A stretch of DNA of 64,000 nt from an uncultured Planctomycetia bacterium (GTDB taxonomy: Bacteria; Omnitrophota; Gorgyraeia; 1-14-0-20-64-10): positions 12,647 through 76,646 of the forward strand of contig CAZQXN010000005.1 in assembly GCA_964597545.1 (NCBI GenBank). The letters are read 5' to 3'. Under the pieces are notes generated by a model, which worked only from the letters and a program-made list of their open reading frames with translations, searched no databases and had not been told where the DNA came from. A program made the position numbers and the translations under genes. Positions 25,542-59,786 of the stretch are shown one piece after another. The number at the start of each line of letters is the position of its first letter. Position 1 is the first letter of the stretch.

Positions 25542-25549
25542 TGTGTCCC

Positions 25550-26933: not shown

Positions 26934-26936
26934 GAT

Positions 26937-28897: not shown

Positions 28898-28899
28898 CC

Positions 28900-43438: not shown

Positions 43439-44560
43439 TTAGACATGAGTACTCACAACCCTTTCATAGCCGTCCAAAAGGCGCTTGAAGTTCTTGCTGA
43501 AATTGGCGCGCTCGCTCACCAACCTTCGATTCGCCTGCCCCATCTGATGACAGCGCTCCGGCTCATCCAATGCCTCAAGGAGGACAGCGGATAGCTCCTC
43601 AACATCCCCTGAGGGATAGCGCCATCCGTTAACACCCGGCTCAACCCATTCCTGATTTCCGTATGCATCCGGTACAGCGACGGCCAAACCGCTCGCCATC
43701 GCCTCCAAGAGGCTGACGGAGGTCCCGTCGCATCGAGTGGTGCTGACGTAGAGATCCGATCCCTGAAAATAAACCGGAACCTCCCTCTCGGGAACCCTGC
43801 CCGGCAAATGGACCCACTCTGAGATGGCCTGCTTTTGAATGAACGCTTCGATCTGGCCGCGGAGAGAGCCGTCTCCGAGCATCAGAAAGCGAACATCCTT
43901 CCTTGTTTCTAGAACGCGCCGCGCCGCCTCCAGGAAGAGCTCGGTGCCGCGGCCAGGCTCCATAGAACGGGCGCTGACAACAATCCTGCAACCGCTCCAG
44001 AAAGGTTTCTTGGGGTTTCTTGTCTCCGGAAAACGATCCAGCTCCACGCCAAAGGGAAGCAGGATAATCTGCTCCGAGCGGACCGCAGTCAAGGAAAGGA
44101 TCCGCTTGCGTACTGTTTCGCAATCTGCGACGACCCGCTGGGCCCTGGAAAGGGTCCACGAGACGATCCAGCGAATCCAGCGAGCCCGTTCCGCAACCAA
44201 CAGCACATCCGAACCCCAAGACATCAGGACCAGCGGTCGAGCCCCCGCCAGAGCGGCATAGAATCCTCCCGTCTGGATGGGGCCGGCATGGACAATGTCC
44301 GGCCGAAGCTTCCGAAGGTACCGGCGCAGGCGAAGAACGGCCACAGCGGCGCTTAAAACGGTCGTCCGGCCCGGCCGGCGCTTGAGCGGCGGCAGTCGCT
44401 TCACCCCTTCCGGTAGGGAGCGGCTCTCCAGTGGATGCGGGTCCCAAGCGCAGGAAAGAAACCAAACCTCGTAAGAGGCCCTGCTCAATCGATCCAGAAA
44501 CCGCCTGTCGTGCGTGCTGTACCCTTGAGAAATGTAAAGAATCCGCCTCTTGGTGCGCAT
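43439..44560 (-). CDS. GT4-family glycosyltransferase
   Basis: DLYVSTTRCDGTSVSLLEAMASGLAVAV...GVNGW. Confidence 0.8.
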   Translation of the reverse strand: MRTKRRILYISQGYSTHDRRFLDRLSRASYEVWFLSCAWDPHPLESRSLPEGVKRLPPLKRRPGRTTVLSAAVAVLRLRRYLRKLRPDIVHAGPIQTGGFYAALAGARPLVLMSWGSDVLLVAERARWIRWIVSWTLSRAQRVVADCETVRKRILSLTAVRSEQIILLPFGVELDRFPETRNPKKPFWSGCRIVVSARSMEPGRGTELFLEAARRVLETRKDVRFLMLGDGSLRGQIEAFIQKQAISEWVHLPGRVPEREVPVYFQGSDLYVSTTRCDGTSVSLLEAMASGLAVAVPDAYGNQEWVEPGVNGWRYPSGDVEELSAVLLEALDEPERCHQMGQANRRLVSERANFSKNFKRLLDGYERVVSTHV

Positions 44561-46080
44561 CAGAAACCCACCCTCTTGCCGCTACGAAAACCGTTTGGAT
44601 AGACGGCCTCGTAATCCAGAAGAAAGGTTCCCCGGCGAGGGACAACCTGCTCTTCCAATCGATACGTATCGGGGTTGTAGACTTGAAAAACCCACGCGGC
44701 GCCCCGCCGAGTAATGGGAGAACGAACCACATGCGTCGGCCTCTTCTCCCCTGCAACCAGATGGACCAAATAGGGAAAACCTCGGCCCAGAAGAGCTTCC
44801 ACGCCCCAATAGGTGTCCAGTTGATCGTTGGAGTTTTGAACCCAAGTGTATGGAATCTGTCTGGAGAAACTCGCCTGATCGATCAACACCCGTTCAGAAC
44901 GAAGGAGTGCCTCTTTGGATGCGGTGAGGGTATCGCAAATGGCCCGATTGATCCGGCAAGCCACCACTTGGTTCCAGGCCGTTCCCTGAGAGACCACAAG
45001 CCCCAGGAATAACGCAGCACTCACAGCAAGCACGCGAAATCTCCCAAGCAGAGGAATCGCTGCAGCAATCAAGAGGACAAAACCAATGGATGACATCCCG
45101 GTATGCCGCCCTAGAATGCCCCATGTCAGAAAGACCGGAGCAACCAAAAGGATGAAGATGGCGGCAGCCAGCCCAAGGGTTGGGGCTGGAACCTTTGGGA
45201 AAGAGGTTCGCTTCAACCAGCGCCAGAGGCCCGCGGCAAAGAGAGCGTTGGCTGCCACCAGCAAGAAGATCCACGGCGCCTCGATGGTTGGAAAGCGGTA
45301 CAGCCCATAGAGAATCCACTTGGCCATCTGCCGGCCGAGGTAAAGCTGGGGAAGCATACTAAAAATGTTGGGTAGAACTCTCACCAGTTGGACATCGGGG
45401 GCTTTTGAATCTGACGCAACCCACCCAAAAACATCAAACCGAAGCAGGAGGTAAGCGGCAACAGGTATGAGAAAAAGAAGGCACGCCTTGGCGCTGCGGC
45501 GCTCTTTCAACCAGGCATAGAGGAGCAAAACCAGCGGCAGGAAGAACCCAAGCTCATACATGAAAAGGGCTGTTGTATAGCAGAGAAATGAGCCAGCCAG
45601 ATGGCCCCACCGTTTCCTCTGAGTGTAGAGAATAAAGAGGATAAGACTTGCCACATAAAGGGTAAAGACCACATTCAGGTAGGTATAGGTGAGGGTATGG
45701 TAGAGTGCCAGTTTATTGGGCAAAAGAAGATAAAACAGTGCGCACAAAAAGGCCCACCCCCGCCGTTCCAGCAGGAGATTCAGCAACAGATAAACCGCCC
45801 AGAGCAACGCTGTGCTGGAGAGAAAGACCAGGCTGACCGCAAACAACGGCTTCTCGGCTGCGAGAACATCCAGGGCATAATGAAAGATCAGGAGGGGGCG
45901 GTCAGGGGTGGACAAAATCTCCTGCCACAAGAAGAGCATGGTGTTCTCTTGGTTGAGGATGGCGAGCCATCGAGCCACATCATCCAAAGAGAGAAAGACC
46001 CGTTCAAATGGAATAAAATGAGCCAATCCATTGACCGCCAGAAGAACCATCAGGGGGAGCAGGTGTCGCTTCATGCTCAT
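44560..46080 (-). CDS. polytopic integral membrane protein (candidate glycan polymerase / GT-C-type transferase)
   Basis: 506 aa with roughly 12 hydrophobic helices. No soluble domain. Confidence 0.5.
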   Translation of the reverse strand: MSMKRHLLPLMVLLAVNGLAHFIPFERVFLSLDDVARWLAILNQENTMLFLWQEILSTPDRPLLIFHYALDVLAAEKPLFAVSLVFLSSTALLWAVYLLLNLLLERRGWAFLCALFYLLLPNKLALYHTLTYTYLNVVFTLYVASLILFILYTQRKRWGHLAGSFLCYTTALFMYELGFFLPLVLLLYAWLKERRSAKACLLFLIPVAAYLLLRFDVFGWVASDSKAPDVQLVRVLPNIFSMLPQLYLGRQMAKWILYGLYRFPTIEAPWIFLLVAANALFAAGLWRWLKRTSFPKVPAPTLGLAAAIFILLVAPVFLTWGILGRHTGMSSIGFVLLIAAAIPLLGRFRVLAVSAALFLGLVVSQGTAWNQVVACRINRAICDTLTASKEALLRSERVLIDQASFSRQIPYTWVQNSNDQLDTYWGVEALLGRGFPYLVHLVAGEKRPTHVVRSPITRRGAAWVFQVYNPDTYRLEEQVVPRRGTFLLDYEAVYPNGFRSGKRVGF

Positions 46081-48122
46081 GCCGTCCTAAAGACAGGTTG
46101 CACCGGCTGGCCTTTCAACCGGCTGGAAACCTCTTGTTTTTCATGCGCCTGGGCAACAATCCGCATGACCGTAGCGTAGACCCTGAGCAGCTCGTCCGCC
46201 TCGGCATCTCCATGGGCAGCGCTGGTCAGATGATACCCGGAAAAGAGGACACCCCGCTTTGCGCACTCCTGCTGAAAAAGACTCTTTAGCGCCAGGGATT
46301 CAGCCTCATCCCGGCCGTGAAACTGAACCACCGTTCGGGGAGCAAATCCCGCGCATTGGGTCAGTTCCCCCAAGCCGCATTCGCGCGCCAGAACGTTGTA
46401 GCCGGCCTGAATTCGTTTCCCCGCGGCCCAAAGTTGCGGCACGACATTGCAGCGAACCATTTTTTCCAAGGTCGCCTTGGCCGCCGCTAAAGAAAGGGTC
46501 TCTCCGCCGAAGGTAAAGGAGAAGAAAACCTCTTCAAAGTGCCGCATCAACGCTCTGCGCCCTACCAGGGCCGAAAGGGGCAAGCCGTTGGCCATCGCCT
46601 TGCCGAAACAAGCCAGATCTGGGATGACGCCGAAATGTTTCTGGGCACCGCCTAAGTCAAACCGAAAACCGGTCAACACCTCATCAAAGATGAGCAGGGC
46701 CCCTTCCCTCTGGGTCAAGGCGCGAACGGCCTCGAGGAACCGGCCCTCGGGAGGCTCCACCCCCACAGGTTCCAGGATGACGGCGGCAACCGCTCCGGGA
46801 TGCTCCGCAAAGATCCGTTTGAGGGAATCCAGCTGGTTGTATTCAAACGGAAAGGTCAGCTTCCTAACCGCCTCGGGAACTCCTCGCCTGCGGGTCGTGG
46901 TGCCAATGGTCCAATCCTGCCACCCGTGATAGCCTGAAGTCGCGATCAACGCCCGCCCGGTCACCGCGCGGGCCAGCCGGACCGCCCCGGTGGTCACATC
47001 GGAGCCATTCTTGCCGAAGCGCACCATCTCGGCGCAGGGAATGAGCGCCGTGAGCATTTCGGAAAGTTCCACCTCCAGAGGATGGGGAAGCGAGAAGACG
47101 GCTCCGGCTTTGAGCTGCTCACAAACAGCGGCGTTGACATCCCGATCGTTGTACCCCAAGATCATCGGGCCCAACGCCATCGCAACATCAAGATACCGGT
47201 TGCCATCGACATCCCAAACCCGAGCCCCTTCCCCTCGCACCAGAAAGCTGGGGGCCACTCCCGGGACAAACTGCGTGGGCCCCTTGCTGAAGGTCTGGGA
47301 GCTGCCCGGCACCACCCGGGCCGCCCGCGCAGCCCACGCTGAAGAGGCAGCCAGCTTGCGCGGAATCTCGGGGAGGGGATCATCCTTCAAGAAAGATTTG
47401 TAATAACCCTCCTCTGAAATCGAGGTTGGGTTGATGGCGGTCAGCTCCGGTGTGGTTCGGACCAATTGCAGAACATCCTCCAGGCAAAAAAGTTGATCGG
47501 CCCCTTTCAGTTTCCGGTAAACCGCCCGGACAAATTCGAGATCCGCCGGGTGATCCACCGACCACTTCAGTCCCGAAAGATCTTCCGGGGCCTCCACGGT
47601 AGCAATCTTAAATTTTCCGAAGTGCTTCATGTAGGGGGTCACATGCTCACGCTCAGAGGCGCCCCGGGCCTGGCGGTGTGCGCGCTCCAACGCTTCAAAA
47701 GAAAAAACCTCTACATCCATACCGTCCGGAAAGCGCTTGCCCATGTTGTTGCTGGCATAATCAAAATCCCCGGAACGAAACCGTTCCACAACCTGGTCCA
47801 GCAGCTTGGGGTCCATCAAGGGGCAGTCCGGGGTGACCCGAACAATGGTGGTCACTCCAAAAGCAACTGCGGCTTGATAGAACCGCTCCAGCACATCAGC
47901 CTCAGAACCGCGGCTTATCTTCAACCCCCGTTCCTCGGCAAACTGCACGAATACATCATCCTGTTTCTGGTCGGTGGTGGCGATGACCACCTCCTCAACG
48001 TAGCGGCTGGCGCGTACACGCTCAATCAACCACTCCAGCATCGGTTTTCCTGCTACCTCGGCCAAAGCCTTGCCGGGAAGCCGGGAAGAGCCCATTCGGG
48101 TCTGGATGATGGCTGCCAGCAT
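46077..48122 (-). CDS. fusion of acylneuraminate cytidylyltransferase-like (SpsF/NeuA-like) domain with class III (GSA-aminomutase-like) PLP aminotransferase
   Basis: N-terminal AAIIQTRMGSSRLPGKALAEVAGKPMLEWLIERV...CPLMD. C-terminal VWDVDGNRYLDV...GKNGSDVTTGAVRLAR...LLIFDEVLTGFRF...FGKAMANGLP (class III aminotransferase). Confidence 0.75.
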   Translation of the reverse strand: MLAAIIQTRMGSSRLPGKALAEVAGKPMLEWLIERVRASRYVEEVVIATTDQKQDDVFVQFAEERGLKISRGSEADVLERFYQAAVAFGVTTIVRVTPDCPLMDPKLLDQVVERFRSGDFDYASNNMGKRFPDGMDVEVFSFEALERAHRQARGASEREHVTPYMKHFGKFKIATVEAPEDLSGLKWSVDHPADLEFVRAVYRKLKGADQLFCLEDVLQLVRTTPELTAINPTSISEEGYYKSFLKDDPLPEIPRKLAASSAWAARAARVVPGSSQTFSKGPTQFVPGVAPSFLVRGEGARVWDVDGNRYLDVAMALGPMILGYNDRDVNAAVCEQLKAGAVFSLPHPLEVELSEMLTALIPCAEMVRFGKNGSDVTTGAVRLARAVTGRALIATSGYHGWQDWTIGTTTRRRGVPEAVRKLTFPFEYNQLDSLKRIFAEHPGAVAAVILEPVGVEPPEGRFLEAVRALTQREGALLIFDEVLTGFRFDLGGAQKHFGVIPDLACFGKAMANGLPLSALVGRRALMRHFEEVFFSFTFGGETLSLAAAKATLEKMVRCNVVPQLWAAGKRIQAGYNVLARECGLGELTQCAGFAPRTVVQFHGRDEAESLALKSLFQQECAKRGVLFSGYHLTSAAHGDAEADELLRVYATVMRIVAQAHEKQEVSSRLKGQPVQPVFRTA

Positions 48123-49135
48123 CAGGCGCCTCCCAAGGAAACAACCGATCCGGTCCGGATGGAGTGATCAATTCCCTCTGCGACCCGAAGCACCTCGACC
48201 CCGTGGGCAACATCCACTTGAGGGGGCCATCCGTTACGCGCCGAATCCAGGAATGACTTGAGCTCCTCAAGATAGGTGTCCAGAGGCTCTCCCGTGACCT
48301 CCACCGGAAGATAGCGATCCTTCCCCTTCTCGCACACCGTCAAAGCCCCCAGACTGTCATCGACTCGACCTTGGGAGCAATCCCATCGCAGTGCGGCATC
48401 CTCCCCCATCAGCCAAAACCCGCGCCGGTAAGTCGGCTGCAGGCAATCCAGGCTTAAGGTTGCAATCCCTTGGGCGCATGTGTGCAGCAAAACCTTGATG
48501 GTGTCGAACCCGGAAATCTCAAGCGCACTGAGTTTCCCTCCCATGGCCATGACCCGCTCTATCGGACCCATGAAGAAAAGAGCCAAATCAATCTCATGTG
48601 AGCCGTCAAAGATAAGCCCTCCGCCAGCACCCGCCGAAGCCATGTAGCTTTGGCGGTAACTCTTCTGCTTCCACCACTTCGCCAGGTACAGACCGAATTC
48701 AAAGTGAGCCGTCAAGATCTTCCCGAGGACACCGGATTGCACCATCGTTTTCGCGGTTCTGACCGCGGGATGAAAACGAAGATTGTATCCCACCTGAACC
48801 AGTCGCCCGTCGGCCTGTGCGCGCCGAAGAAGCGTTTCGGTCCCATCCACTCCTACCGAGAGGGGCTTTTCCACAAACACATGAGCGCCCGCCTCCAGCG
48901 CCTTCTGGGCCATCTCCACATGTGTCGCCGCGGGGGTGCAGACCAAGACCACATCCGGTCGGCGACCCAGCGCCTCCTCGGGGTTGGGGCAGACCGCAAT
49001 TCCGCAGGCTGCTTGGGTTTTCTCCCGAGCAGAGGGATCGGGATCAACCGCTTCAATGCCCGTGATACCCAGGCGGCGCAGATGATCAATGTGCCTGAGC
49101 CCAATGGAACCGCATCCCAATACCAGCGCCTTCAC
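48122..49135 (-). CDS. Gfo/Idh/MocA-family oxidoreductase
   Basis: MKALVLGCGSIGLRH Rossmann and VEKP motif. Confidence 0.8.
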   Translation of the reverse strand: MKALVLGCGSIGLRHIDHLRRLGITGIEAVDPDPSAREKTQAACGIAVCPNPEEALGRRPDVVLVCTPAATHVEMAQKALEAGAHVFVEKPLSVGVDGTETLLRRAQADGRLVQVGYNLRFHPAVRTAKTMVQSGVLGKILTAHFEFGLYLAKWWKQKSYRQSYMASAGAGGGLIFDGSHEIDLALFFMGPIERVMAMGGKLSALEISGFDTIKVLLHTCAQGIATLSLDCLQPTYRRGFWLMGEDAALRWDCSQGRVDDSLGALTVCEKGKDRYLPVEVTGEPLDTYLEELKSFLDSARNGWPPQVDVAHGVEVLRVAEGIDHSIRTGSVVSLGGA

Positions 49136-49147
49136 GCTCCTTGCCTC

Positions 49148-50218
49148 CTACACATTGACCTGGGTCGCCGTGCGAAGAGCCGGCTGCTTACTTAACAAAA
49201 GGAGTTCCCGCGCCACCCGCAAAGCCCCTTGTCCATCGACCAGGCAAGGACCCGCCTCGGACATGGCAAGCCGAACTTGCCTGTCCAAAAGGATCGGCAA
49301 AAAGGCCTTCCGAAGCTCTGGCAGTGCGTCCGGTTGACGCACGCCGCCGGCTCTCCGGACCGATCCGGCCTGAACCAGATGCTCCAGCTGCCCCTGTTGG
49401 TTGAAAGCGATCTCAAACGCCACGGCGGGACATCCCACGCGAGCCAACTCGTAAAGGGTCTGGCCCGCTCCTGTGACGGCAAGATCCGCCTCCAGAAAAA
49501 GATCCCGGACTTGGTCAGGTGCCTCGATGCAGCGAACCTTGCGGGTCAGCGCGGCTGCGGTGCGGCGAACCTCCTCTGGGTTCCGGAAAAAGGGACCCAA
49601 GACAGCACTCACGCTGAACTGACCCGGTACGCTCTCGAGTAGCCTTAACACCTTTGGCGTCAAGCAGTAAGGATCGGCGCCTCCGAAGATGACGAGCACG
49701 TTTTGGACCTCCGGCCGCACCGGATGGGCAGGAACCTCCCAAAATTCAGAGCGGAGAATAGCGTATTCGGGCCCCTGCAGGAAACGGGTTCCGGGCAAGG
49801 GAGAGCGATACTCCAGCGTGCGCGCATGCGCATCCCCATTGACCACCAGATGGCACGGAAACGGGTGGGGATTGATGTCTTCAATGGCGCAAACCGCAAA
49901 ACCTGCCAGCGTTAGGAATGAAAGGTACTGATCCCCTTCCTCGTCGGAATCAACGATGATCACCCGGCAGTTCCGCTCCTTGGCCATGGCACAGGTTTGT
50001 CTTTGGTCCGCCGGACTCCAGGAGGATGGCGCTCCCAGGGGAAAACCGTCAAACCCAAAGTCCCGCACACGCTTGAGCGCTTCCGGCGCCCCGGAAACCA
50101 GGAAGAAGCTCTTCACTGAAAAGCGCTTGAGTGCTTGCGCCAGAGAGAGACACCGCTGAAGATGTCCCAGGCCCACCCGGTGATCGGCATCTACTCGAAA
50201 GAGGACGTCCATGGTCAT
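49148..50218 (-). CDS. pseG: PseG-like UDP-sugar hydrolase (pseudaminic acid pathway; SpsG/MurG-like fold)
   Basis: VLFRVDADHRVGLGHLQRCLSLAQAL aligns with the Campylobacter PseG N-terminus [26 protein letters not shown]. Confidence 0.65.
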   Translation of the reverse strand: MTMDVLFRVDADHRVGLGHLQRCLSLAQALKRFSVKSFFLVSGAPEALKRVRDFGFDGFPLGAPSSWSPADQRQTCAMAKERNCRVIIVDSDEEGDQYLSFLTLAGFAVCAIEDINPHPFPCHLVVNGDAHARTLEYRSPLPGTRFLQGPEYAILRSEFWEVPAHPVRPEVQNVLVIFGGADPYCLTPKVLRLLESVPGQFSVSAVLGPFFRNPEEVRRTAAALTRKVRCIEAPDQVRDLFLEADLAVTGAGQTLYELARVGCPAVAFEIAFNQQGQLEHLVQAGSVRRAGGVRQPDALPELRKAFLPILLDRQVRLAMSEAGPCLVDGQGALRVARELLLLSKQPALRTATQVNV

Positions 50219-50775
50219 CCCTCGAGCTTTCCGATCGCCTTGAGGAGTGCTGTGGCATACAGGGGATAGAGGGTGTTGTAAACTTCACCAACAGACCGCT
50301 CCCCTGAGAGGGGAATAAACTCCTCCGCCAGGACTTCGCCCTCATCGACCCGCTCTATCATCCGGTGAACGCCGACGCTGGCGCGGGGGCTGCCGTCTCT
50401 CAACATGCGCTCGATCGGCCCGGCTCCTTTGTACTTCCACAGGCAGGGATGCGCGTTAATGCCACCCAGCCGGCAGAGGCGAAGCAGGCGCTCTGGCACA
50501 ATTTCTCGTCCGTGTACAGAGACCACCAGGTCTGCTTCCCGGAAACAGGATTCCGCCCCATCTTGACGGATGGAAGAAAGAATTGGCAGCTTCAGCTCCT
50601 GCGCCAGGCGCTTGAGCGAATCGTCATAGGCCACCACGCCGATGACCCTCAAACCTACGCCCAAGACGGTCAGCAGGCCCATACAGCCTGCCTGCCTGCT
50701 GCCCAGAAAGAGAACCCGAAGGGGAGGATTCACCCTGTGAGACCTCCCCGCTCGAGAAAAGTACGCCTCGCCCAA
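50215..50775 (-). CDS. formyltransferase-domain protein (Fmt N-terminal-like), short
   Basis: INAHPCLWKYKGAGPIERML and GVHRMIERVDEGEVL resemble the catalytic loops of formyl transferases. Confidence 0.5.
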   Translation of the reverse strand: MGEAYFSRAGRSHRVNPPLRVLFLGSRQAGCMGLLTVLGVGLRVIGVVAYDDSLKRLAQELKLPILSSIRQDGAESCFREADLVVSVHGREIVPERLLRLCRLGGINAHPCLWKYKGAGPIERMLRDGSPRASVGVHRMIERVDEGEVLAEEFIPLSGERSVGEVYNTLYPLYATALLKAIGKLEG

Positions 50776-50788
50776 GGTCTAACGGGAC

Positions 50789-51838
50789 TCATCTCAGATC
50801 CCCCAAGCTGACAGACTCCTTGGGGCGTAGATCCCGCAGCGCCTTTTTTCCGATCATCGACGGCAGAGCGCCGGGTGGCGCTCCAGGCAGATGTTTTCCG
50901 TTGCGAAGAACAATCAGGTGGCTTGCCTGCAAGACCTCTCCGGCCCGGACAGCCTGGGAGGTAAAGACCGAGCGGCGCCCAAAATCATGGAGCTCCTTCT
51001 CTGCCGGATGCATCTGTTTGGCCCCGCTTCCCAGCGCCGTCTCGGCGAGATGAACCAACCGAACCATCTCCCGCAACTCATCCGGCTCGACGGCGAAACG
51101 GTGATCTGGTCCAGGCAGCGCATTGCTGAAGGTGAAATGTTTTTCAATCAGGTCTGCTCCCAAGGCTGCCGCGGTCACCGGAGCCAACCACGGGTGGCGG
51201 GAATGGTCTGAAAGGCCGGCGGGAACCTGGAAGGTTGAGCGGAGTGTCTCAAGAGCGCGGATGTTCAACGTCTCCAGAGGAGCCGGGTAAGCGGCGGTGC
51301 ATTGCATCAAGAGGAGTTGTGGGTTGCCGGTCTTCCGGAAGATCTCTACCAGCTCTGAGACCTCATCAAGCTGCGCCGTACCGGTTGAGATGATGACCGG
51401 TTTGCCCTTTCCTGCCACATGTTGGACCAGGGGGAAATGGGTCATTTCATAAGAGGCAATCTTATGCGCGGAAACATACGGATCGCACCGGTCTGCCGAT
51501 TCTTCGTCAAAAACAGAGACCAGGAAAAGGATCTCCAATTCCTTGCACCGGTCCGACAACCGAGGCAACCATTCGTACGGCATTTCCATCTGGCGAATGA
51601 TGTCGTAAATGGATCGGGAATCCTTGAGATAGTCGCTCTTCCCCGCGGATTTCGGATACAGCTTCTCGGCCCGAAACAGCTGGAACTTGACGGCATCCGC
51701 GCCAGCCTGGGAAGCCAACTCCACCAGGCGGAGGGCCTGCTCCAAGCTCCCGTTGTGGTTGGAACCGGCTTCGGCAATGACAAAACAAGCCGCACCCATT
51801 CCAACCTGCCGCTTCCCAATCTGAATCGTCTGCATCAT
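50789..51838 (-). CDS. NeuB-family nonulosonic acid synthase (PseI/LegI/NeuB-type), full length with SAF domain
   Basis: FVIAEAGSNHNGSLEQALRLVELASQAGADAVKFQ, LSDHS, EKHFT, C-terminal SAF-like region. Confidence 0.85.
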   Translation of the reverse strand: MMQTIQIGKRQVGMGAACFVIAEAGSNHNGSLEQALRLVELASQAGADAVKFQLFRAEKLYPKSAGKSDYLKDSRSIYDIIRQMEMPYEWLPRLSDRCKELEILFLVSVFDEESADRCDPYVSAHKIASYEMTHFPLVQHVAGKGKPVIISTGTAQLDEVSELVEIFRKTGNPQLLLMQCTAAYPAPLETLNIRALETLRSTFQVPAGLSDHSRHPWLAPVTAAALGADLIEKHFTFSNALPGPDHRFAVEPDELREMVRLVHLAETALGSGAKQMHPAEKELHDFGRRSVFTSQAVRAGEVLQASHLIVLRNGKHLPGAPPGALPSMIGKKALRDLRPKESVSLGDLR

Positions 51839-51859
51839 CGCCGTCGCTCCGCTCCCTGC

Positions 51860-53575
51860 TTAAAGATCCGCATGCGTGGCACCCTGAACAGCCGGCGCGC
51901 TCATCGGCTGCGCCTCACCGGTATGTGGGTGGCGAACCGTATTCTGGGCGCCCAGTGTCTGAATGGCTCGCCAAGAAAGCTCAATCACCTGTTCATCCGG
52001 CATATCGCTGAAATTGGTTCGAACCTCTTCCCCCTGCTCACCCAGGCGGAGGAGATACTGCTCGATGAGTGTTTCATCGGCCGGCCCGGGGCGGCCGGTC
52101 ACCGCCTTGGCGATCAGCCCGCGCTCAAGCGCCAGGTCCCAAAATGCCGTAGCCGGATAGGCGGTCGTGAAAAAGAAAACCTCAGGGGCCAACCCCACCC
52201 GCTTGCAGAAGTCGACCGTCTCCTGGACCGTCCGGGGGGACTCGCTCGGAGAACCGACCATGAACGAGCAGTCGGCATAACCCATGACGCGTTGGGTTTC
52301 CCGGATCGCCAGCTCCATCTTTTCCAGGGTCTGACCTGACTTATCGATCGCCTTGAGCACCGCGGGGCTGGCCGATTCGACGCCGTAACCGGCCTGGCGC
52401 ATGCCCACCTCATGGGCCTGCTCCAGCATGTGCGCACGTCCCTCTTTCTTCGCCCGAGTGACATCATCAGCGATGATATTGGTTCGGCAGGTTCCGCCCC
52501 AGAGCACCTCAAACCCGGATTCCTTCTTGCGCCGACGCAGTTCCTCGCAGAACTTCAGCGCCCAGCGGTAGTCGGTCATCATCAGATCATCCAGGAAATG
52601 AATGTAGGTCAAACCGTAACGCGCCTTGAGAAACACCATCTCATCGACCACATCGCCAGGCGAGCGCAACCGGTACTGCTTGCCCAGGTAGGCCGCATAA
52701 CAGTAGTCGCAGGCCGTAACCGCGTAGGGGCATCCTCGGGAGGCGATCATCGACGCCGAAGCAGCATCCTCTTGGATCGGTGTGCCTCTGACCCATTTGG
52801 TTGCCCAATTCAGGTGTCCAACGGGATTGCGCTTATACACCTCATCCAGGGGCCAGAGAGAGCGCAGCGGCCAAGGCAGCGCATCCAAACCCGCCACATT
52901 GCTCTTGACGGAAGGGCGCAAGCCATTGTCGATGTATTCCCATTCCCCTGAACTGTTCTTGCGCCGGAACACCACGCCCCGGATCCCATCGTAGGAAACG
53001 CCGGTTTCTATCCGGTGCAGCAACTCCGAGAAGGTCACCTCCCCTTCCTCCTGGATGACGGCGTCAACCCCCATCCGCTTGAGCATGAAGAGCGGCATGG
53101 AAGAGGCGATCCCGCCTCCCAAGACAACGGGAATCTCCGGATGGATCTTCTTGCACAGTCGGGCAATCTGGCGAATCCGGCCGTATTGGGTCACGATGCC
53201 GCCCAAACCAATGAGGTCCGGCGTCTGACGCATCAGGGCCGCGACCACTCGCTCTTCAGTCCAGGCCGACAACGCCTCGCCGGAGAGCTCCATCGGCCCT
53301 TTTCGAGCGGCGTTGAGATCCAGGACGTTCACCCGATGGCCGTCCATCCTGGCGACCGAAGCGATGTAGCCGTGGCCAATCGGCATGATGTTGGGATAGG
53401 ACCATTCCCGGATCGGAGCATTGATGAGCAGGATGTCTAATCCGTTTGCGCGGAGCGGAAATTGTTTGAGGGATTTCTCGTCTGTCAACCGCGGCCAGTC
53501 AGGTCGCAGCACTTCTCCATCTCGGAATCGCTGGTAGAAACGCTCTGGAACTGCCTGGGCAGAGTATCCGGCCAT
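51860..53575 (-). CDS. cobalamin-binding-domain radical SAM enzyme (class B-like) with non-canonical Cys spacing
   Basis: N-terminal B12-binding-like domain (DILLINAP...HRVNVLDLN). Cluster motif read as C-PYAVTA-C-DY-C (CX6CX2C) rather than CX3CX2C. Confidence 0.65.
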   Translation of the reverse strand: MAGYSAQAVPERFYQRFRDGEVLRPDWPRLTDEKSLKQFPLRANGLDILLINAPIREWSYPNIMPIGHGYIASVARMDGHRVNVLDLNAARKGPMELSGEALSAWTEERVVAALMRQTPDLIGLGGIVTQYGRIRQIARLCKKIHPEIPVVLGGGIASSMPLFMLKRMGVDAVIQEEGEVTFSELLHRIETGVSYDGIRGVVFRRKNSSGEWEYIDNGLRPSVKSNVAGLDALPWPLRSLWPLDEVYKRNPVGHLNWATKWVRGTPIQEDAASASMIASRGCPYAVTACDYCYAAYLGKQYRLRSPGDVVDEMVFLKARYGLTYIHFLDDLMMTDYRWALKFCEELRRRKKESGFEVLWGGTCRTNIIADDVTRAKKEGRAHMLEQAHEVGMRQAGYGVESASPAVLKAIDKSGQTLEKMELAIRETQRVMGYADCSFMVGSPSESPRTVQETVDFCKRVGLAPEVFFFTTAYPATAFWDLALERGLIAKAVTGRPGPADETLIEQYLLRLGEQGEEVRTNFSDMPDEQVIELSWRAIQTLGAQNTVRHPHTGEAQPMSAPAVQGATHADL

Positions 53576-53577
53576 CT

Positions 53578-54786
53578 TTACGCCTCCCTCCCGGAGCGAG
53601 ATGGAACATCAGAGGGCAGAACAGCGGGAGGCGGCCGGTGAAACCGCTCCAGCGCCGACCGAACCGAATGGATCACAAAGTCAACCTCGGCATCGGTCAT
53701 CTTCGGGAAAAGCGGCAGGGTAACAGCCCGGTCAAAATAACGCTCTGAGATAGGGTGGTCGCCCCGCGCGCAACCAAAACGCTGCTGGTAGAAGGGCTGC
53801 AGATGAACCGGCCGGTAATGGACATTCACCCCCACTCCCCTGGCCTGAAGCTCAGAAAAAATTTCCTTTCGGGAGGCCCGCAGCTGCTCCAGCGGCAGCC
53901 TGACAGCATAGAGATGCCAGGCATGCCGGCCGTTTCCGGCGGCCTGCAGCTCAAGCCCCAACCCTTGGAAGGCTTGCGTGTAGGCGGCAGCGATCTGGGC
54001 CCGGCGGTCGAGGAAGCGGTCCAGCTTCCCCATCTGCGCCAGCCCCAGCGCGCACTGAAAATCGGTGATGCGGTAGTTGTACCCCAGCCGTTGCATCTGG
54101 GCACCCCCCGGTTCTGGCGGGTTGAGCTTTACCAACCCATGGTGCCGGAAGCTGCGCAAATGCTCCACGAACTCCGGCCGATTGGTCAGCACCATCCCCC
54201 CTTCTCCGGTGGTAATGTGCTTGACCGGATGAAAGCTGAAGACCGTCATCTCCGAATGCGAGCAGCTGCCGACCCGCTCACGCCGGCCTTCACGAGTCAC
54301 CCATTCCGCGCCCAAGGCATGACAGGCATCCTCAACAACCCTCAGTCCCTTCCGGCGCGCGATGTCCCCAATGGCCTCCATGTCGCAGGGCAGTCCCGCA
54401 AAGTGCACCGGCAAAAGAAGGCGAGTCCGGGAAGTAATCCGTTGGGGCAGCCGCTTGGGGTCTAGGTTCAGGGTCTCGGGGTCCACATCGGAAAAAACCG
54501 GTTTGCCGCCAAGGTACACGACAACGTTGGCGGTCGCCACAAAGGTGAGCGGCGTCGTGACCGCCTCTTCCTGCGGCCCAAGACCCGCCACAAAACAGGC
54601 AGCATGAAGGGCAGCGGTCCCGCTGGAAAAAGCGACCCCGAAGCGGGCGCCGCAGCGCTCGGCCACGGCCCGCTCCAGCGCTTCGATGCGGGGCCCTTGC
54701 GTAATCCACTCTGAACGCAGCGCCTCAATCACTGCGTCAAGGTCTTCCTCGTCGAGCCAGTGGCGGCCGTAGGGGATCGGTTTCAC
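53578..54786 (-). CDS. DegT/DnrJ/EryC1/StrS-family PLP sugar aminotransferase (PseC/LegC-like)
   Basis: Family-typical body. Start re-placed at GTG 54786 (VKPIPYGRHWLDEED...), which overlaps the PseB-like stop (GTGA). Confidence 0.85.
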   Translation of the reverse strand: MKPIPYGRHWLDEEDLDAVIEALRSEWITQGPRIEALERAVAERCGARFGVAFSSGTAALHAACFVAGLGPQEEAVTTPLTFVATANVVVYLGGKPVFSDVDPETLNLDPKRLPQRITSRTRLLLPVHFAGLPCDMEAIGDIARRKGLRVVEDACHALGAEWVTREGRRERVGSCSHSEMTVFSFHPVKHITTGEGGMVLTNRPEFVEHLRSFRHHGLVKLNPPEPGGAQMQRLGYNYRITDFQCALGLAQMGKLDRFLDRRAQIAAAYTQAFQGLGLELQAAGNGRHAWHLYAVRLPLEQLRASRKEIFSELQARGVGVNVHYRPVHLQPFYQQRFGCARGDHPISERYFDRAVTLPLFPKMTDAEVDFVIHSVRSALERFHRPPPAVLPSDVPSRSGREA

Positions 54787-55808
54787 CAGCCCTCCCGGTT
54801 GTCCACCAGGGCCAGGTCCACCCCTTGGATCAGCTGTTGAATCTCGTCCTTGGAAAGCCACTGCGTGTTGGCGTTGCTGGCATAGGTGAAATCCGGCGGT
54901 GTCGGTTTTCCCTCAATCCAGTTAATTTCCCGCTGGTGGGGACCAAAATCCGGCAGGATGACGTAAAAATCATCCAGCTCGATGGTTCGGCGCGCATCAT
55001 CAGAAGAAACCAGTACCTCATGCAGTTTTTCTCCCGGGCGAATGCCGACGATTTGGTGGCGGCAGTCAGGCGCAAGCGCCTCTGCCAAATCCACAATGTT
55101 CATGCTGGGGACCTTCGGCACAAAAATCTCGCCGCCGTGCATGCGCTCCAACGCGCTGAGCACCAAATCGACCGACTGATCCAGCGTGATCCAAAAACGG
55201 GTCATTCTCTGATCGGTAATCGGAATGGAGCCAGTCTTGCGCAGCTTGAGAAACAGCGGAATCACGGAACCGCGGGAACCGACCACATTGCCGTATCGAA
55301 CCACGCTGAACTTGGTTTTGTGGGGCCCGGAGTAGACATTGCCGGCAATGAACAGCTTGTCGGAGCAGAGTTTGCTCGCACCGTAGAGATTGATCGGGTT
55401 GGCAGCCTTATCGGTGGAAAGGGCCACCACGTTCTTTACCCCCTGGTCGATGGCGGCATCGATCACGTTGGCCGCCCCTAAGACATTGGTCTTGATCACT
55501 TCCAAGGGGTTGTACTCGGCCGTGGGAATCTGCTTAAGGGCAGCCGCATGCACCACCACGTCCACTCCATTAAAAGCGCGTTGCAGCCTGTCCTTATCCC
55601 GAACATCGCCGATGAAAAAACGCAGTCTCGGGTCGCAGAACTGCCTGGCCATCTCAGACTGTTTCCACTCGTCCCGGCTGAAAATGATCAGCTTCTTGGG
55701 CTGATGATCACGCAAAAGAACTTGAGCAAATTTTTTTCCAAAGGAACCGGTCCCGCCGGTCACCAAAACCACTTTGTCGTTAAATATCATTTCGACTCCT
55801 GTCTTCAT
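54783..55808 (-). CDS. pseB: UDP-N-acetylglucosamine 4,6-dehydratase (inverting), PseB/FlaA1-like
   Basis: MIFNDKVVLVTGGTGSFGKKFAQVLL...LIIFSRDEWKQSEMARQF...RFFIGDVRDKDRL is colinear with Campylobacter/Helicobacter PseB. Start placed at the M whose ATG overlaps the upstream stop. Confidence 0.85.
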   Translation of the reverse strand: MKTGVEMIFNDKVVLVTGGTGSFGKKFAQVLLRDHQPKKLIIFSRDEWKQSEMARQFCDPRLRFFIGDVRDKDRLQRAFNGVDVVVHAAALKQIPTAEYNPLEVIKTNVLGAANVIDAAIDQGVKNVVALSTDKAANPINLYGASKLCSDKLFIAGNVYSGPHKTKFSVVRYGNVVGSRGSVIPLFLKLRKTGSIPITDQRMTRFWITLDQSVDLVLSALERMHGGEIFVPKVPSMNIVDLAEALAPDCRHQIVGIRPGEKLHEVLVSSDDARRTIELDDFYVILPDFGPHQREINWIEGKPTPPDFTYASNANTQWLSKDEIQQLIQGVDLALVDNREGW

Positions 55809-58156: not shown

Positions 58157-58160
58157 GGGC

Positions 58161-59777: not shown

Positions 59778-59786
59778 GAAATGATC

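What the first reader, a model, noticed from the sequence alone, without database searches (positions are those of the whole stretch)
46077..55808. Pseudaminic-acid-like core with substitutions: formyltransferase in place of PseH, CyTase-aminotransferase fusion beside a Gfo/Idh/MocA oxidoreductase
PseB-like (54783), PseC-like (53578), NeuB/PseI-like (50789) and PseG-like (49148) are recognisable, but no GNAT/LbH N-acetyltransferase (PseH) is seen. A formyltransferase-fold protein (50215) sits at that position; a second is at 2671. N-formylated nonulosonic acids (for example Pse5Ac7Fo) are known. The putative CMP-synthetase domain is fused to a class III aminotransferase (46077) and is adjacent to a Gfo/Idh/MocA oxidoreductase (48122). 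This is the oxidise-then-transaminate logic used to add an amino group (WbpB/WbpE, NtdC/NtdA), possibly on the CMP-activated sugar. Together these predict a multiply aminated/formylated, perhaps C-methylated, nonulosonic acid.
Basis: partly seen in the sequence, partly recalled or inferred. Interest (0 to 1): 0.65.

Follow-up and report, generated by a model that had tools for sequence, protein, structure and literature searches.

The report
Variant pseudaminic-acid sugar gene cluster
This stretch is a real but non-standard version of the bacterial pathway for pseudaminic acid, a nine-carbon surface sugar: a formyl-adding enzyme stands in for the usual acetyl-adding one, and a widespread enzyme trio of unknown function probably adds one more amino group.

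Summary
On the minus strand, in one overlapping operon, lie PseB, PseC, a B12 radical-SAM enzyme, an SpsE-like NeuB-family synthase, a 172-aa formyltransferase, PseG, a Gfo/Idh/MocA oxidoreductase and a 681-aa cytidylyltransferase–class III aminotransferase fusion. No GNAT or LbH acetyltransferase and no canonical PseF exists anywhere in the 64 kb.

Neither oddity is unique. A formyltransferase replacing PseH is a characterised idea (PseJ, for Pse5Ac7Fo). The enzyme here belongs to a different, small, unstudied lineage that sits beside pseG and neuB and is sometimes fused to PseG.

The oxidoreductase + SpsF-like cytidylyltransferase + class III aminotransferase trio occurs in many bacterial phyla and in a haloarchaeon, unfused or fused, including triple fusions. 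It has been noted without an assigned function in Aeromonas flagellin islands and Legionella O-antigen loci.

Comparative evidence favours oxidise-then-transaminate on the sugar: the aminotransferase is swapped for a DegT-type one in some loci, and a second N-acyltransferase co-occurs with the trio (Fisher p = 0.002). The position aminated and the substrate stage are inferred only.

Verdict: a new variant of a known kind, of moderate interest.

The parts
54783..55808 (-). PseB: UDP-GlcNAc 4,6-dehydratase (inverting), first pathway step
   Evidence: TIGR03589 516.9 bits, above the 407.75 cut-off. ATG at 55808 abuts the upstream stop.
53578..54786 (-). PseC: UDP-4-keto-sugar 4-aminotransferase (DegT family)
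   Evidence: TIGR03588 444.5 bits, above the 423.5 cut-off. GTG start at 54786 with GGGAGG upstream; it overlaps the pseB stop.
51860..53575 (-). B12-binding radical SAM enzyme, a candidate C-methyltransferase acting on the sugar
   Evidence: Pfam B12-binding + Radical_SAM. No equivalog match. Orthologues at 67-73% identity occupy the same position in L107, L086 and L011; same-position B12-rSAM genes also in L168 and L169.
50789..51838 (-). NeuB-family nonulosonic acid synthase (SpsE-like), condenses the hexose with PEP
   Evidence: Pfam NeuB + SAF. Below both the NeuB and PseI cut-offs. PDB: SpsE 1VLI 268 bits, PseI 8H2C 203 bits, NeuB 152 bits.
50215..50733 (-). Short single-domain N-formyltransferase (172 aa), predicted functional replacement of PseH
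   Evidence: Formyl_trans_N. N93/H95/D130 are invariant in 24 relatives. AF2 pLDDT 96 with TM about 0.9 to the Fmt and ArnA catalytic domains. Its stop overlaps the pseG start. The family lies next to pseG and neuB in the related loci.
49148..50218 (-). PseG: UDP-sugar hydrolase
   Evidence: TIGR03590 159.8 bits, above the 153.55 cut-off. No GNAT domain is fused to it.
48122..49135 (-). Gfo/Idh/MocA NAD(P) oxidoreductase, partner of the fusion enzyme
   Evidence: Pfam. It shares one base with the start of the fusion gene. An orthologous position is held by Gfo or by an aldo/keto reductase in all related loci. Gfo is fused to the cytidylyltransferase-aminotransferase in P0065 and P0077.
46077..48122 (-). 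Fusion of an SpsF-like cytidylyltransferase (residues 1-~240) and a PRK06209-type class III PLP aminotransferase (residues ~255-681)
   Evidence: Pfam and NCBIfam. PDB 6OEW 132 bits for the cytidylyltransferase half; GSAM-like hits for the aminotransferase half. The CTP-binding motif and PLP lysine K508 are invariant in 16 relatives (sequence). More than 7,800 homologues.

Best explanation
This is a variant pseudaminic-acid-type nonulosonic acid (NulO) pathway, transcribed as one translationally coupled operon in the order pseB, pseC, rSAM, neuB, FT, pseG, gfo, CT-AT.

1. PseB and PseC convert UDP-GlcNAc to UDP-4-amino-4,6-dideoxy-L-AltNAc. Both genes are assigned at equivalog level.
2. The 172-aa formyltransferase uses N10-formyl-tetrahydrofolate to formylate that 4-amino group, replacing the missing acetyltransferase PseH. 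This is inferred. It is the role proven for the unrelated short formyltransferase PseJ, and it would give a 7-N-formyl sugar.
3. PseG removes UDP, and the SpsE-like synthase condenses the hexose with PEP.
4. The SpsF-like cytidylyltransferase domain makes the CMP-sugar. This is inferred from its being the sole cytidylyltransferase in simpler sister clusters and from B. subtilis spsF genetics.
5. The Gfo oxidoreductase oxidises a free hydroxyl of the nine-carbon acid and the fused class III aminotransferase converts the ketone to an amine. The likeliest site is the C8 hydroxyl next to the C9 methyl, at the free or CMP-bound stage. The result would be a tri-amino NulO whose new amine is left free or is formylated. 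This step is inferred.
6. The B12 radical SAM enzyme may add a C-methyl group. This is speculative.
For: Core assignment: PseB, PseC and PseG each score above the curated equivalog cut-offs.

Formyltransferase:
- The catalytic N-H-D triad is invariant.
- The model is confident and matches the Fmt, ArnA and WbkC catalytic domains.
- One relative is flanked by SHMT, FolD and 5-formyl-THF cyclo-ligase, a formyl-folate supply.
- The family sits between or beside pseG and neuB in the related loci.
- At least 15 loci with pseB, pseC, pseG or neuB have this formyltransferase and no GNAT.
- A PseG-FT fusion exists, mirroring the known PseG-PseH fusions.
- No GNAT or LbH is present in the 64 kb.
- PseJ is the precedent for Pse5Ac7Fo (Reimer et al. 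2018, cited in PMC11040635; PDB 6CI2).

Cytidylyltransferase domain:
- The CTP motif is invariant.
- Stand-alone SpsF-like cytidylyltransferases at 43-45% identity are the only ones in simple pseB-pseC-CT-pseG-FT-neuB loci.
- B. subtilis spsF is needed for transfer of the sugar but not for its synthesis (PMC7439481).

Oxidoreductase and aminotransferase:
- They are adjacent in every locus examined. The oxidoreductase is either Gfo or an aldo/keto reductase.
- Gfo-CT-AT triple fusions exist.
- The class III aminotransferase is replaced by a DegT-type sugar aminotransferase next to Gfo and the cytidylyltransferase in L081 and L154.
- Among formyltransferase-bearing loci, a second N-acyltransferase (GNAT) occurs in 7 of 8 with the trio against 4 of 20 without it (Fisher p = 0.0019).

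Precedents recalled from my own knowledge, not checked with tools: KdnB/KdnA for Kdo8N, GenQ/GenB1, WbpB/WbpE.
Against: - No enzyme here has been assayed.
- The synthase is not a PseI equivalog, so the stereochemistry of the product is uncertain.
- The formyltransferase family also co-occurs with, and is fused to, PseH-like GNATs. It could therefore formylate a different amine.
- The window has two aminotransferases but only one nearby N-acyltransferase.
- Some trio-bearing loci (L001, L002) have only one acyltransferase.
- The two closest relatives of the fusion (L086, L168) lack pseC and pseG within 10 kb. The class III aminotransferase may therefore play another role there.
- An aldo/keto reductase in place of Gfo is more typical of reduction than of oxidation.
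- Three other cytidylyltransferase-domain proteins lie in the window.
- About 21 kb of the source contig, which may hold pseH or pseF, could not be read.
- The co-occurrence statistic ignores shared ancestry among the loci.
Confidence: 0.45

Rival explanations
1. The formyltransferase does not replace PseH. It formylates the extra amine made by Gfo and the aminotransferase, or an amine exposed by one of the window's deacetylases. An unlinked or unrecognised acetyltransferase acylates the PseC-derived amine.
For: The formyltransferase and a PseH-like GNAT co-occur in 7 of 8 loci that carry the trio. FT-GNAT and GNAT-FT fusion proteins exist. L081, L154, L169 and L170 carry both a GNAT and a formyltransferase with the trio. 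Formyltransferases of several lineages recur beside the trio (L003, L008, L086, L169, L170).
Against: No GNAT or LbH lies in 64 kb of densely packed glycan genes. The formyltransferase stop overlaps the pseG start, and a PseG-FT fusion exists. At least 15 loci without a second aminotransferase have this formyltransferase as their sole N-acyltransferase. From my own knowledge, PseG and the synthase in characterised systems need an N-4-acylated substrate.
Confidence: 0.2
2. The oxidoreductase and class III aminotransferase do not add a third amino group to the final sugar. They could epimerise or deaminate a position through a keto intermediate, or make an N-acyl side-chain precursor. The fusion to the cytidylyltransferase would then reflect only co-expression.
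For: An aldo/keto reductase, usually a reductase, replaces Gfo in many loci (PMC7874193). The aminotransferase is most similar to glutamate-1-semialdehyde aminomutases, which act on small amino-aldehydes. PRK06209-type paralogues occur outside sugar clusters. No tri-amino nonulosonic acid was found in the searchable literature. Some trio-bearing loci have only one N-acyltransferase.
Against: The class III aminotransferase is swapped for a DegT-type sugar aminotransferase with Gfo and the cytidylyltransferase retained. The trio correlates with an extra N-acyltransferase. Covalent Gfo-CT-AT fusions argue for consecutive steps on one substrate. It is not HemL: TIGR00713 245 bits, below the 527 cut-off.
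Confidence: 0.2
3. The class III aminotransferase domain is the pathway's main aminotransferase in this lineage, aminating the PseB product or a derivative. pseC, neuB-FT and pseG in the window would then be a recently inserted, partly redundant second set.
For: The closest relatives L086 (77% identity) and L168 (63%) have pseB-rSAM-gfo-CT-AT-...-neuB plus a single N-acyltransferase, with no pseC or pseG within 9-10 kb. The pseB-pseC-rSAM-...-neuB-FT-pseG unit exists separately in L107. Mosaic identity (58-97%) points to recombination.
Against: Most loci with the trio also carry pseC and pseG. From my own knowledge, a class III aminotransferase acting on an NDP-4-keto sugar has no precedent. 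Gfo would have no role. pseC and pseG may simply lie elsewhere in those genomes.
Confidence: 0.1

Closest known systems
Canonical CMP-pseudaminic acid pathway PseB-PseC-PseH-PseG-PseI-PseF (Campylobacter jejuni, Helicobacter pylori)
   Same: PseB, PseC and PseG match at equivalog level. A NeuB-family synthase and a CTP_transf_3 cytidylyltransferase are present. The genes form one operon.
   Different: There is no PseH; a formyltransferase sits in its place. The synthase is SpsE-like and scores below the PseI cut-off. The cytidylyltransferase is SpsF-like (PseF model 34 bits against a cut-off of 206) and is fused to an aminotransferase. Extra Gfo and B12-rSAM genes are present.
PseJ, the formyltransferase that makes 7-N-formyl-pseudaminic acid (Reimer et al. 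2018, ACS Chem Biol 13:3161; PDB 6CI2, 6CI4)
   Same: A short, single-domain formyltransferase-fold enzyme inside a Pse cluster, predicted to act on the PseC product. Its product class, Pse5Ac7Fo, is known from Pseudomonas aeruginosa glycans.
   Different: It is not an orthologue. The family profile matches PseJ at only 36 bits over about 96 residues, against 70 bits for Fmt. PseJ is absent from the top 50 Foldseek hits. The lineage has its own HPCLYxYKG motif and is untested.
Aeromonas polar-flagellin glycosylation islands, group I (pseB-pseC-aldo/keto reductase-pseF-class III aminotransferase-pseG-(pseH)-pseI; PMC7874193). Also the L. pneumophila Sg6/Sg12 O-antigen cluster (PMC3694923) and the Moritella viscosa SpsF-AKR fusion (PMC7371886).
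   Same: The same three-part set, an oxidoreductase, a cytidylyltransferase and a class III aminotransferase, is embedded between pseC and pseG.
   Different: Here the cytidylyltransferase and aminotransferase form one polypeptide and the oxidoreductase is Gfo/Idh/MocA rather than an aldo/keto reductase. Homology to the Aeromonas proteins was judged from their published annotation only, not from sequence. No function has been assigned in any of these systems.
Oxidise-then-transaminate pairs on sugars: KdnB/KdnA (Kdo to Kdo8N before CMP activation), GenQ/GenB1 after GenK methylation in gentamicin, WbpB/WbpE, NtdC/NtdA
   Same: A dehydrogenase lies next to a PLP aminotransferase. A B12-rSAM methylase lies nearby, as with GenK. 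Class III sugar C-6' aminotransferases appear among the PDB matches.
   Different: None is a close homologue. The best aminotransferase matches are GSA aminomutases. The substrate and the position are unknown here. These precedents are recalled from my own knowledge and were not tested.
B. subtilis sps legionaminic acid pathway (SpsM/C/D/G/E/F; PMC7439481)
   Same: It uses an SpsE-type synthase, an SpsF-type cytidylyltransferase and a PseG-like SpsG hydrolase on UDP-linked intermediates.
   Different: The sps pathway has a GNAT (SpsD), no formyltransferase, no Gfo-aminotransferase pair, and a different dehydratase. Its product was reported as Leg, not Pse.
Ca. Kuenenia stuttgartiensis NulO cluster with a deacetylase and a formyltransferase (SugarBase preprint, 10.64898/2026.04.20.719630)
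   Same: CMP-NulOs carrying one formylated and one free amine were detected, so formylation happens at the nucleotide-sugar or precursor level. The window also carries a deacetylase + formyltransferase set, at 427-3381.
   Different: That cluster is Leg-type and achieves formylation by deacetylate-then-formylate. It has no cytidylyltransferase-aminotransferase fusion. No sequence comparison was made.

Membership tests
CMP-pseudaminic acid pathway | PseB, inverting UDP-GlcNAc 4,6-dehydratase | tested here: met
   TIGR03589 516.9 bits, above the 407.75 cut-off.
CMP-pseudaminic acid pathway | PseC aminotransferase | tested here: met
   TIGR03588 444.5 bits, above the 423.5 cut-off.
CMP-pseudaminic acid pathway | PseH, GNAT N-acetyltransferase | tested here: not met
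   No GNAT or LbH Pfam or NCBIfam hit in any scanned ORF. tblastn with five acyltransferase queries gave a best E of 0.03. The genome outside the window was not searchable.
CMP-pseudaminic acid pathway | PseG, UDP-sugar hydrolase | tested here: met
   TIGR03590 159.8 bits, above the 153.55 cut-off.
CMP-pseudaminic acid pathway | PseI synthase | tested here: inconclusive
   PseI model 278 bits, below the 340 cut-off; NeuB model 315 bits, below 400. Closest solved structure is SpsE, ahead of PseI and NeuB.
CMP-pseudaminic acid pathway | PseF cytidylyltransferase | tested here: not met
   The fusion's cytidylyltransferase domain scores 34.5 bits on TIGR03584 against a cut-off of 205.7. It is SpsF/6OEW-like. 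A functional equivalent is likely but is not a family member.
PseJ-type Pse 7-N-formyltransferase | Formyltransferase catalytic fold with an Asn-His-Asp triad | tested here: met
   N93, H95 and D130 are invariant. AF2 pLDDT 96.3; TM 0.87-0.90 to the Fmt and ArnA catalytic domains.
PseJ-type Pse 7-N-formyltransferase | Orthology to PseJ (PDB 6CI2, 6CI4) | tested here: not met
   The profile matches PseJ at 36.5 bits, E 3.8e-8, ranking about 40th. PseJ is not among the top 50 structural matches.
PseJ-type Pse 7-N-formyltransferase | Formylates UDP-4-amino-4,6-dideoxy-L-AltNAc using N10-formyl-THF | not testable with these tools
   Only context supports this: position beside pseG and neuB, PseG-FT fusions, loci with the formyltransferase as sole acyltransferase, and a folate-enzyme neighbourhood in L083.
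Housekeeping Fmt / PurN | Equivalog-level score, and for Fmt the C-terminal tRNA-binding domain | tested here: not met
   fmt model 52 bits, below 201.5; PurN model 27 bits, below 150. The protein is 172 aa with a single domain. It lies in a glycan operon.
Glutamate-1-semialdehyde 2,1-aminomutase (HemL) | Equivalog-level match to HemL | tested here: not met
   TIGR00713 245 bits, below 527; PRK06209 401 bits, below 486. The PLP lysine is conserved. It is fused to a cytidylyltransferase in a sugar operon.
Oxidoreductase + SpsF-like cytidylyltransferase + class III aminotransferase trio of Pse-type clusters (Aeromonas group I, Legionella Sg6 type) | The three functions lie adjacent between pseC and pseG/neuB | tested here: met
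   Window gene order. The same arrangement occurs in L001-L013, L084, L086, L168-L170 and L172. Literature descriptions.
Oxidoreductase + SpsF-like cytidylyltransferase + class III aminotransferase trio of Pse-type clusters (Aeromonas group I, Legionella Sg6 type) | Sequence homology to the Aeromonas and Legionella proteins themselves | not tested
Homology is inferred from their published annotations.
Sugar oxidise-then-transaminate pair (WbpB/WbpE-like logic) | The dehydrogenase makes a keto-sugar that the aminotransferase aminates | not testable with these tools
   Indirect support only: the DegT swap, triple fusions and the acyltransferase co-occurrence, p = 0.0019.

The most novel reading that the evidence does not exclude
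The operon makes a so far undescribed class of CMP-activated nonulosonic acid: a 5,7,8-triamino (8-amino-8,9-dideoxy) Pse-type acid that is N-formylated and possibly C-methylated by the B12 radical SAM enzyme. The amination would be done at the nine-carbon stage by an enzyme physically fused to the CMP-synthetase. If so, the same widespread trio would imply unrecognised tri-amino sugars on Aeromonas flagella, on Legionella non-Sg1 LPS and in many environmental phyla. It might also relate to the unexplained CMP-ulosonic acids with extended backbones reported in Magnetospirillum; no gene link to those has been shown.
Probability: 0.25. Interest if true: 0.75.

Novelty: new variant of a known kind. 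Interest (0 to 1): 0.45.

Why it matters
Nonulosonic acids decorate flagella, pili, capsules and LPS, and their N-substituents govern recognition by phages, antibodies and immune receptors.

The oxidoreductase/cytidylyltransferase/class III aminotransferase trio has more than 7,800 homologues of the fused form. It occurs in pathogens (Aeromonas, Legionella non-Sg1) and across environmental phyla and haloarchaea, yet no function has been assigned to it.

The comparative patterns found here turn 'unknown tailoring genes' into a concrete hypothesis that can be tested by mass spectrometry: the trio adds an amine that is then N-acylated. Those patterns are the interchange between class III and DegT aminotransferases, the covalent triple fusions, and the co-occurrence with a second N-acyltransferase.

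The short formyltransferase lineage is a second, independent solution to the PseJ reaction. It could be a useful biocatalyst for making N-formyl Pse derivatives, which are currently made by chemical synthesis.

Tried and rejected
1. Naming the source organism and reading the roughly 21 kb of the 85-kb contig outside the window. Exact-protein look-ups for the fusion and for two edge proteins found nothing on record, and the formyltransferase returned only a 4-kb Logan contig. The pseH/pseF-outside-the-window test is therefore still open.

2. The idea that the rhizobial K-antigen Pse cluster contains the class III aminotransferase, which would have argued against a third amine. The 41%-identical homologue on pNGR234b has no pse genes within 9 kb, so it is an unrelated paralogue.

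3. Homology between the 506-aa membrane protein downstream of the fusion and the 502-aa protein downstream of the cytidylyltransferase in L107. None was found. The L107 cytidylyltransferase is also of a different type.

4. Literature searches for tri-amino nonulosonic acids returned nothing. The Reimer 2018 PseJ paper is not held, so it is cited through PMC11040635 and the PDB entry names.

5. A strict rule that the number of aminotransferases equals the number of N-acyltransferases. It holds in most loci but fails in L001, L002, L137 and the window. L006 uses an LbH enzyme and L008 uses another formyltransferase lineage. It is therefore reported only as a statistical association.

6. Housekeeping Fmt or PurN, and true HemL. 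Both were rejected on curated cut-offs.

7. A second structure prediction, of the 681-aa fusion, was considered and not run. Domain packing in a monomer model would not identify the substrate.

Full report
**1. What is in the sequence**

The whole 64-kb window is tiled without gaps by minus-strand genes for glycan synthesis. The finding's region reads as follows in the direction of transcription.

| Gene | Coordinates | Key evidence |
|---|---|---|
| PseB | 54783-55808 | TIGR03589 517 bits, above the 408 cut-off |
| PseC | 53578-54786 | TIGR03588 444 bits, above 423.5 |
| B12-binding radical SAM enzyme | 51860-53575 | Pfam B12-binding + Radical_SAM |
| NeuB-family synthase with SAF domain | 50789-51838 | Pfam NeuB E 9e-79 |
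| Formyltransferase-fold protein | 50215-50733 | Formyl_trans_N E 4e-13 |
| PseG | 49148-50218 | TIGR03590 160 bits, above 153.6 |
| Gfo/Idh/MocA oxidoreductase | 48122-49135 | Pfam |
| CTP_transf_3 + class III aminotransferase fusion, 681 aa | 46077-48122 | Pfam and NCBIfam |

Likely starts are ATG 55808 for pseB, GTG 54786 for pseC and GTG 50733 for the formyltransferase. Each has a Shine-Dalgarno sequence or abuts the preceding stop. An independent gene call also gives 172 aa for the formyltransferase. The formyltransferase stop overlaps the pseG start, and gfo shares a base with the fusion gene. The genes are therefore translationally coupled.

**2. What is missing, and what else is there**

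- No GNAT or LbH acetyltransferase occurs anywhere in the window. This rests on family scans of the tiled ORFs and on tblastn with acyltransferases taken from sister loci.
- No protein reaches the PseF model. The fusion's cytidylyltransferase domain scores 34 bits against a cut-off of 206.
- The synthase reaches neither the PseI nor the NeuB cut-off. It is closest to B. subtilis SpsE (268 bits), ahead of a solved PseI (203 bits) and N. meningitidis NeuB (152 bits).
- The second formyltransferase at 2671-3381 is real. It sits with two deacetylases and another NeuB-family gene.

**3. The formyltransferase**

- The 172-aa protein keeps the Asn-x-His...Asp catalytic triad. N93, H95 and D130 are invariant in 24 relatives.
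- Its AlphaFold model is very confident (pLDDT 96). It superposes on the catalytic domains of Fmt, ArnA and WbkC at TM about 0.9, but it lacks their C-terminal domains.
- It is far below the curated scores for Fmt (52 against 201.5) and PurN (27 against 150).
- An exhaustive profile search finds only about 100 clusters (at 50% identity) at E ≤ 1e-30. This is a small, distinct family of 160-195-aa proteins.
- In related loci the gene lies directly beside neuB and usually beside pseG.
- In at least 15 loci that contain pseB, pseC, pseG or neuB, it is the only recognisable N-acyltransferase.
- One relative is flanked by SHMT, FolD and 5-formyl-THF cyclo-ligase, a dedicated formyl-folate supply.
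- A PseG-formyltransferase fusion exists (P0217; PseG model 242 bits). It parallels the known PseG-PseH fusions.

Together these points support 'formyltransferase doing PseH's job', which would yield a 7-N-formyl acid. That concept is already established. PseJ was characterised as the formyltransferase for Pse5Ac7Fo (Reimer et al. 2018, as cited in PMC11040635), and PDB 6CI2 and 6CI4 are named 'formyltransferase PseJ'. The family here is not PseJ's orthologue: the profile match is 36 bits against 70 bits for Fmt, and PseJ is absent from the top 50 fold matches. It is a second lineage recruited to the same neighbourhood.

One caveat applies. The family also occurs with PseH-like GNATs and is fused to them (P0222, P0271, P0228), so it can act alongside PseH rather than instead of it.

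**4. The cytidylyltransferase-aminotransferase fusion and its oxidoreductase**

The fusion is not rare. More than 7,800 homologues were scored, and the full-length architecture is conserved at 55-77% identity among the named hits in Nitrospiraceae, Deltaproteobacteria, Syntrophales and Desulfobacterales. The CTP-binding motif and the PLP lysine (K508) are invariant.

Loci from public genomes show pseB-pseC-(GNAT)-[aldo/keto reductase or Gfo]-CT-AT-pseG-...-neuB. They come from Verrucomicrobiales, Coriobacteriia, Ca. Sulfotelmatobacter, Endozoicomonas, Janthinobacterium, Undibacterium and Polynucleobacter. A Ca. Rokubacteria locus (L011) keeps the rSAM-gfo-CT-AT part but shows no pseB or pseC within reach. 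An unfused Gfo + cytidylyltransferase + aminotransferase set lies on a haloarchaeal megaplasmid.

An oxidoreductase always precedes the cytidylyltransferase. In P0065 and P0077 Gfo is fused to it, giving a 1,032-aa three-domain enzyme in a pse cluster.

The literature already records the unfused set without assigning a function:
- Aeromonas flagellin islands of group I: pseB-pseC-reductase-pseF-class III aminotransferase-pseG (PMC7874193).
- The L. pneumophila Sg6/Sg12 O-antigen locus (PMC3694923).
- An SpsF-aldo/keto-reductase fusion in Moritella (PMC7371886).

The cytidylyltransferase domain is SpsF-like (PDB 6OEW, 132 bits). Stand-alone versions at 43-45% identity are the only cytidylyltransferase in simple pseB-pseC-CT-pseG-FT-neuB loci. 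B. subtilis spsF mutants still make the sugar but cannot transfer it (PMC7439481). The domain is therefore most likely the CMP-NulO synthetase.

**5. What the oxidoreductase-aminotransferase pair does**

Three comparative facts favour oxidation of a sugar hydroxyl followed by transamination.

- (a) In L081 and L154 the class III aminotransferase is replaced by a DegT-family sugar aminotransferase, while the cytidylyltransferase and Gfo stay.
- (b) The three activities are repeatedly fused.
- (c) Among loci retrieved through the formyltransferase, and so without regard to the trio, a second N-acyltransferase (GNAT) is present in 7 of 8 with the trio and in 4 of 20 without it (Fisher p = 0.0019). 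Loci retrieved through the fusion show the same tendency. L169 has a GNAT plus a formyltransferase. L170 has a sugar formyltransferase between pseG and neuB plus more acyltransferases downstream. L003, L007, L009 and L084 each have two GNATs.

The association is imperfect. L001, L002, L137 and the window have one acyltransferase. The test is also not corrected for shared ancestry.

By chemical reasoning (inference), hexose C3 becomes the ring-forming C6 hydroxyl, and a 4-keto group on a CMP-acid would favour elimination. The 8-hydroxyl next to the 9-methyl is therefore the most plausible target. A methyl ketone also suits class III transaminases. Whether the free acid or the CMP-acid is the substrate cannot be decided here.

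The aminotransferase half is not HemL (245 bits against 527). PRK06209-type paralogues on rhizobial megaplasmids lie outside any pse cluster.

**6. Mosaic origin**

The nearest relative of the fusion is a JGI contig (L086, 77% identity). It shares almost identical upstream genes (GHMP kinase 96.6%, a radical SAM enzyme 93.9%). It has pseB-rSAM-gfo-CT-AT-509 aa-GT4-neuB followed by a 355-aa Fmt-like formyltransferase, with no pseC, pseG or 172-aa formyltransferase within 10 kb. L168 is similar, with a GNAT at that position. Conversely, L107 carries pseB-pseC-rSAM(67%)-CT-x-neuB(61%)-FT(54%)-pseG(45%) without the trio. The window therefore looks like a merger of two recurring units. This also raises the minority possibility that the class III aminotransferase has a more central role in some lineages.

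**7. Comparison with what is known, and novelty**

The region works like a Pse pathway with PseJ-type N-formylation plus an added amination trio. As a family member it passes for PseB, PseC and PseG. It fails for PseH and PseF, which are replaced by non-homologous or distant enzymes. It is inconclusive for PseI.

The combination 'trio + pseG-formyltransferase-neuB' recurs elsewhere (L081, L093, L117, L137, L144, L154, L170), so this is not a one-off. It is best rated a new variant of a known kind. The parts are either characterised in principle (formylation) or recognised but unexplained (the trio).

A recent preprint reports CMP-NulOs with formyl and free amino groups in Ca. Kuenenia, and CMP-ulosonic acids with extended backbones in Magnetospirillum (10.64898/2026.04.20.719630). 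This shows that such products exist and can be detected. No genetic link to this locus has been shown.

**8. Verdict**

Estimated confidence by component:
- About 0.6 that the formyltransferase substitutes for PseH here.
- About 0.75 that the fused cytidylyltransferase domain is the CMP-synthetase.
- About 0.5 that Gfo and the aminotransferase add a third amine.
- About 0.45 for the composite explanation.

Interest is moderate (0.45). The locus is an instance of a common, unsolved tailoring set, and the analysis yields a sharp experimental test. It is not a categorically new system.

Noticed in passing
window 427-3381 (minus strand): A second tailoring set: PIG-L deacetylase (427-1092), a short NeuB-family ORF of 226 aa lacking the N-terminal ~50 residues and the SAF domain (1085-1765), a polysaccharide deacetylase (1749-2690), and a 236-aa formyltransferase with an intact N-x-H...D triad (2671-3381). 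The deacetylate-then-formylate logic resembles the Ca. Kuenenia NulO cluster in the SugarBase preprint.
   Followed up: partly
window 3378-4877 and 6165-7937 (minus strand): Two unusual fusions: GT2 glycosyltransferase + CTP_transf_3 (PseF model 61 bits), and NeuB + SAF + CTP_transf_3 (590 aa). The NeuB-cytidylyltransferase architecture recurs next to pseG-FT-neuB in L082 (5126-6880), and probably in L088 and L093.
   Followed up: partly
window 23905-30503 (minus strand): A KdsB-like cytidylyltransferase (NF003952 200 bits, above the 193 cut-off) lies with two SDRs, a HAD phosphatase, an HpcH/HpaI aldolase and a transaldolase/FSA-type aldolase, interleaved with a GT4 and a methyltransferase; a SIS-domain protein follows at 30500-31126. 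This may be a third route to a keto-acid sugar, unrelated to NeuB.
   Followed up: no
window 31146-32840 (minus strand): PEP mutase fused to an NTP_transf_3 nucleotidyltransferase, which suggests a nucleotide-activated phosphonate decoration in the same glycan locus. Methyltransferase genes and a second Gfo/Idh/MocA gene (33799-34821) lie nearby.
   Followed up: no
window 58161-59777, 61648-63237 and 51860-53575; GHMP kinase 60596-61651: One locus holds three B12-binding radical SAM enzymes plus a GHMP sugar kinase. Only the one at 51860 travels with the pse/trio genes in other genomes (67-73% identity in L107, L086 and L011).
   Followed up: partly
window 43439-61651 against L086 (JGI Ga0118719_1000198): Sharply mosaic identity to the closest relative: GHMP kinase 96.6%, radical SAM 93.9% and GT2 90%, but PseB 78%, Gfo 69%, the fusion 77% and the 506-aa membrane protein 58%. 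pseC, neuB-FT172 and pseG are absent from L086. The sugar-specifying part appears to be a recombination hot spot.
   Followed up: partly
proteins P0217, P0258, P0222, P0271, P0228: The short formyltransferase family occurs fused to PseG, to an SpsF-like cytidylyltransferase, and to PseH-like GNATs in either order. These are natural 'Rosetta stone' links between formylation, acetylation, UDP hydrolysis and CMP activation.
   Followed up: yes
L083 5378-8504: A member of the formyltransferase family lies immediately downstream of SHMT, FolD and 5-formyl-THF cyclo-ligase inside a glycan cluster. This looks like a dedicated one-carbon supply for sugar formylation.
   Followed up: no
window 55805-58156, 41226-43349, 44560-46080, 34818-36422, 10215-12182, 18256-19782: Six large ORFs (506-783 aa) have no Pfam match. 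The 506-aa one directly downstream of the fusion looks hydrophobic by eye, with membrane-like segments, and is conserved (58%) at the same position in L086. It is a candidate transferase or polymerase for the CMP-sugar.
   Followed up: partly
L172 (Halorussus aquaticus plasmid NZ_CP100401.1, 165559-185661): Gfo, an SpsF-like cytidylyltransferase (annotated 'glycosyltransferase family protein') and a class III aminotransferase lie side by side near NeuB-family, DegT-family, SDR and GNAT genes in a haloarchaeon. The trio therefore crosses the bacteria-archaea boundary.
   Followed up: partly
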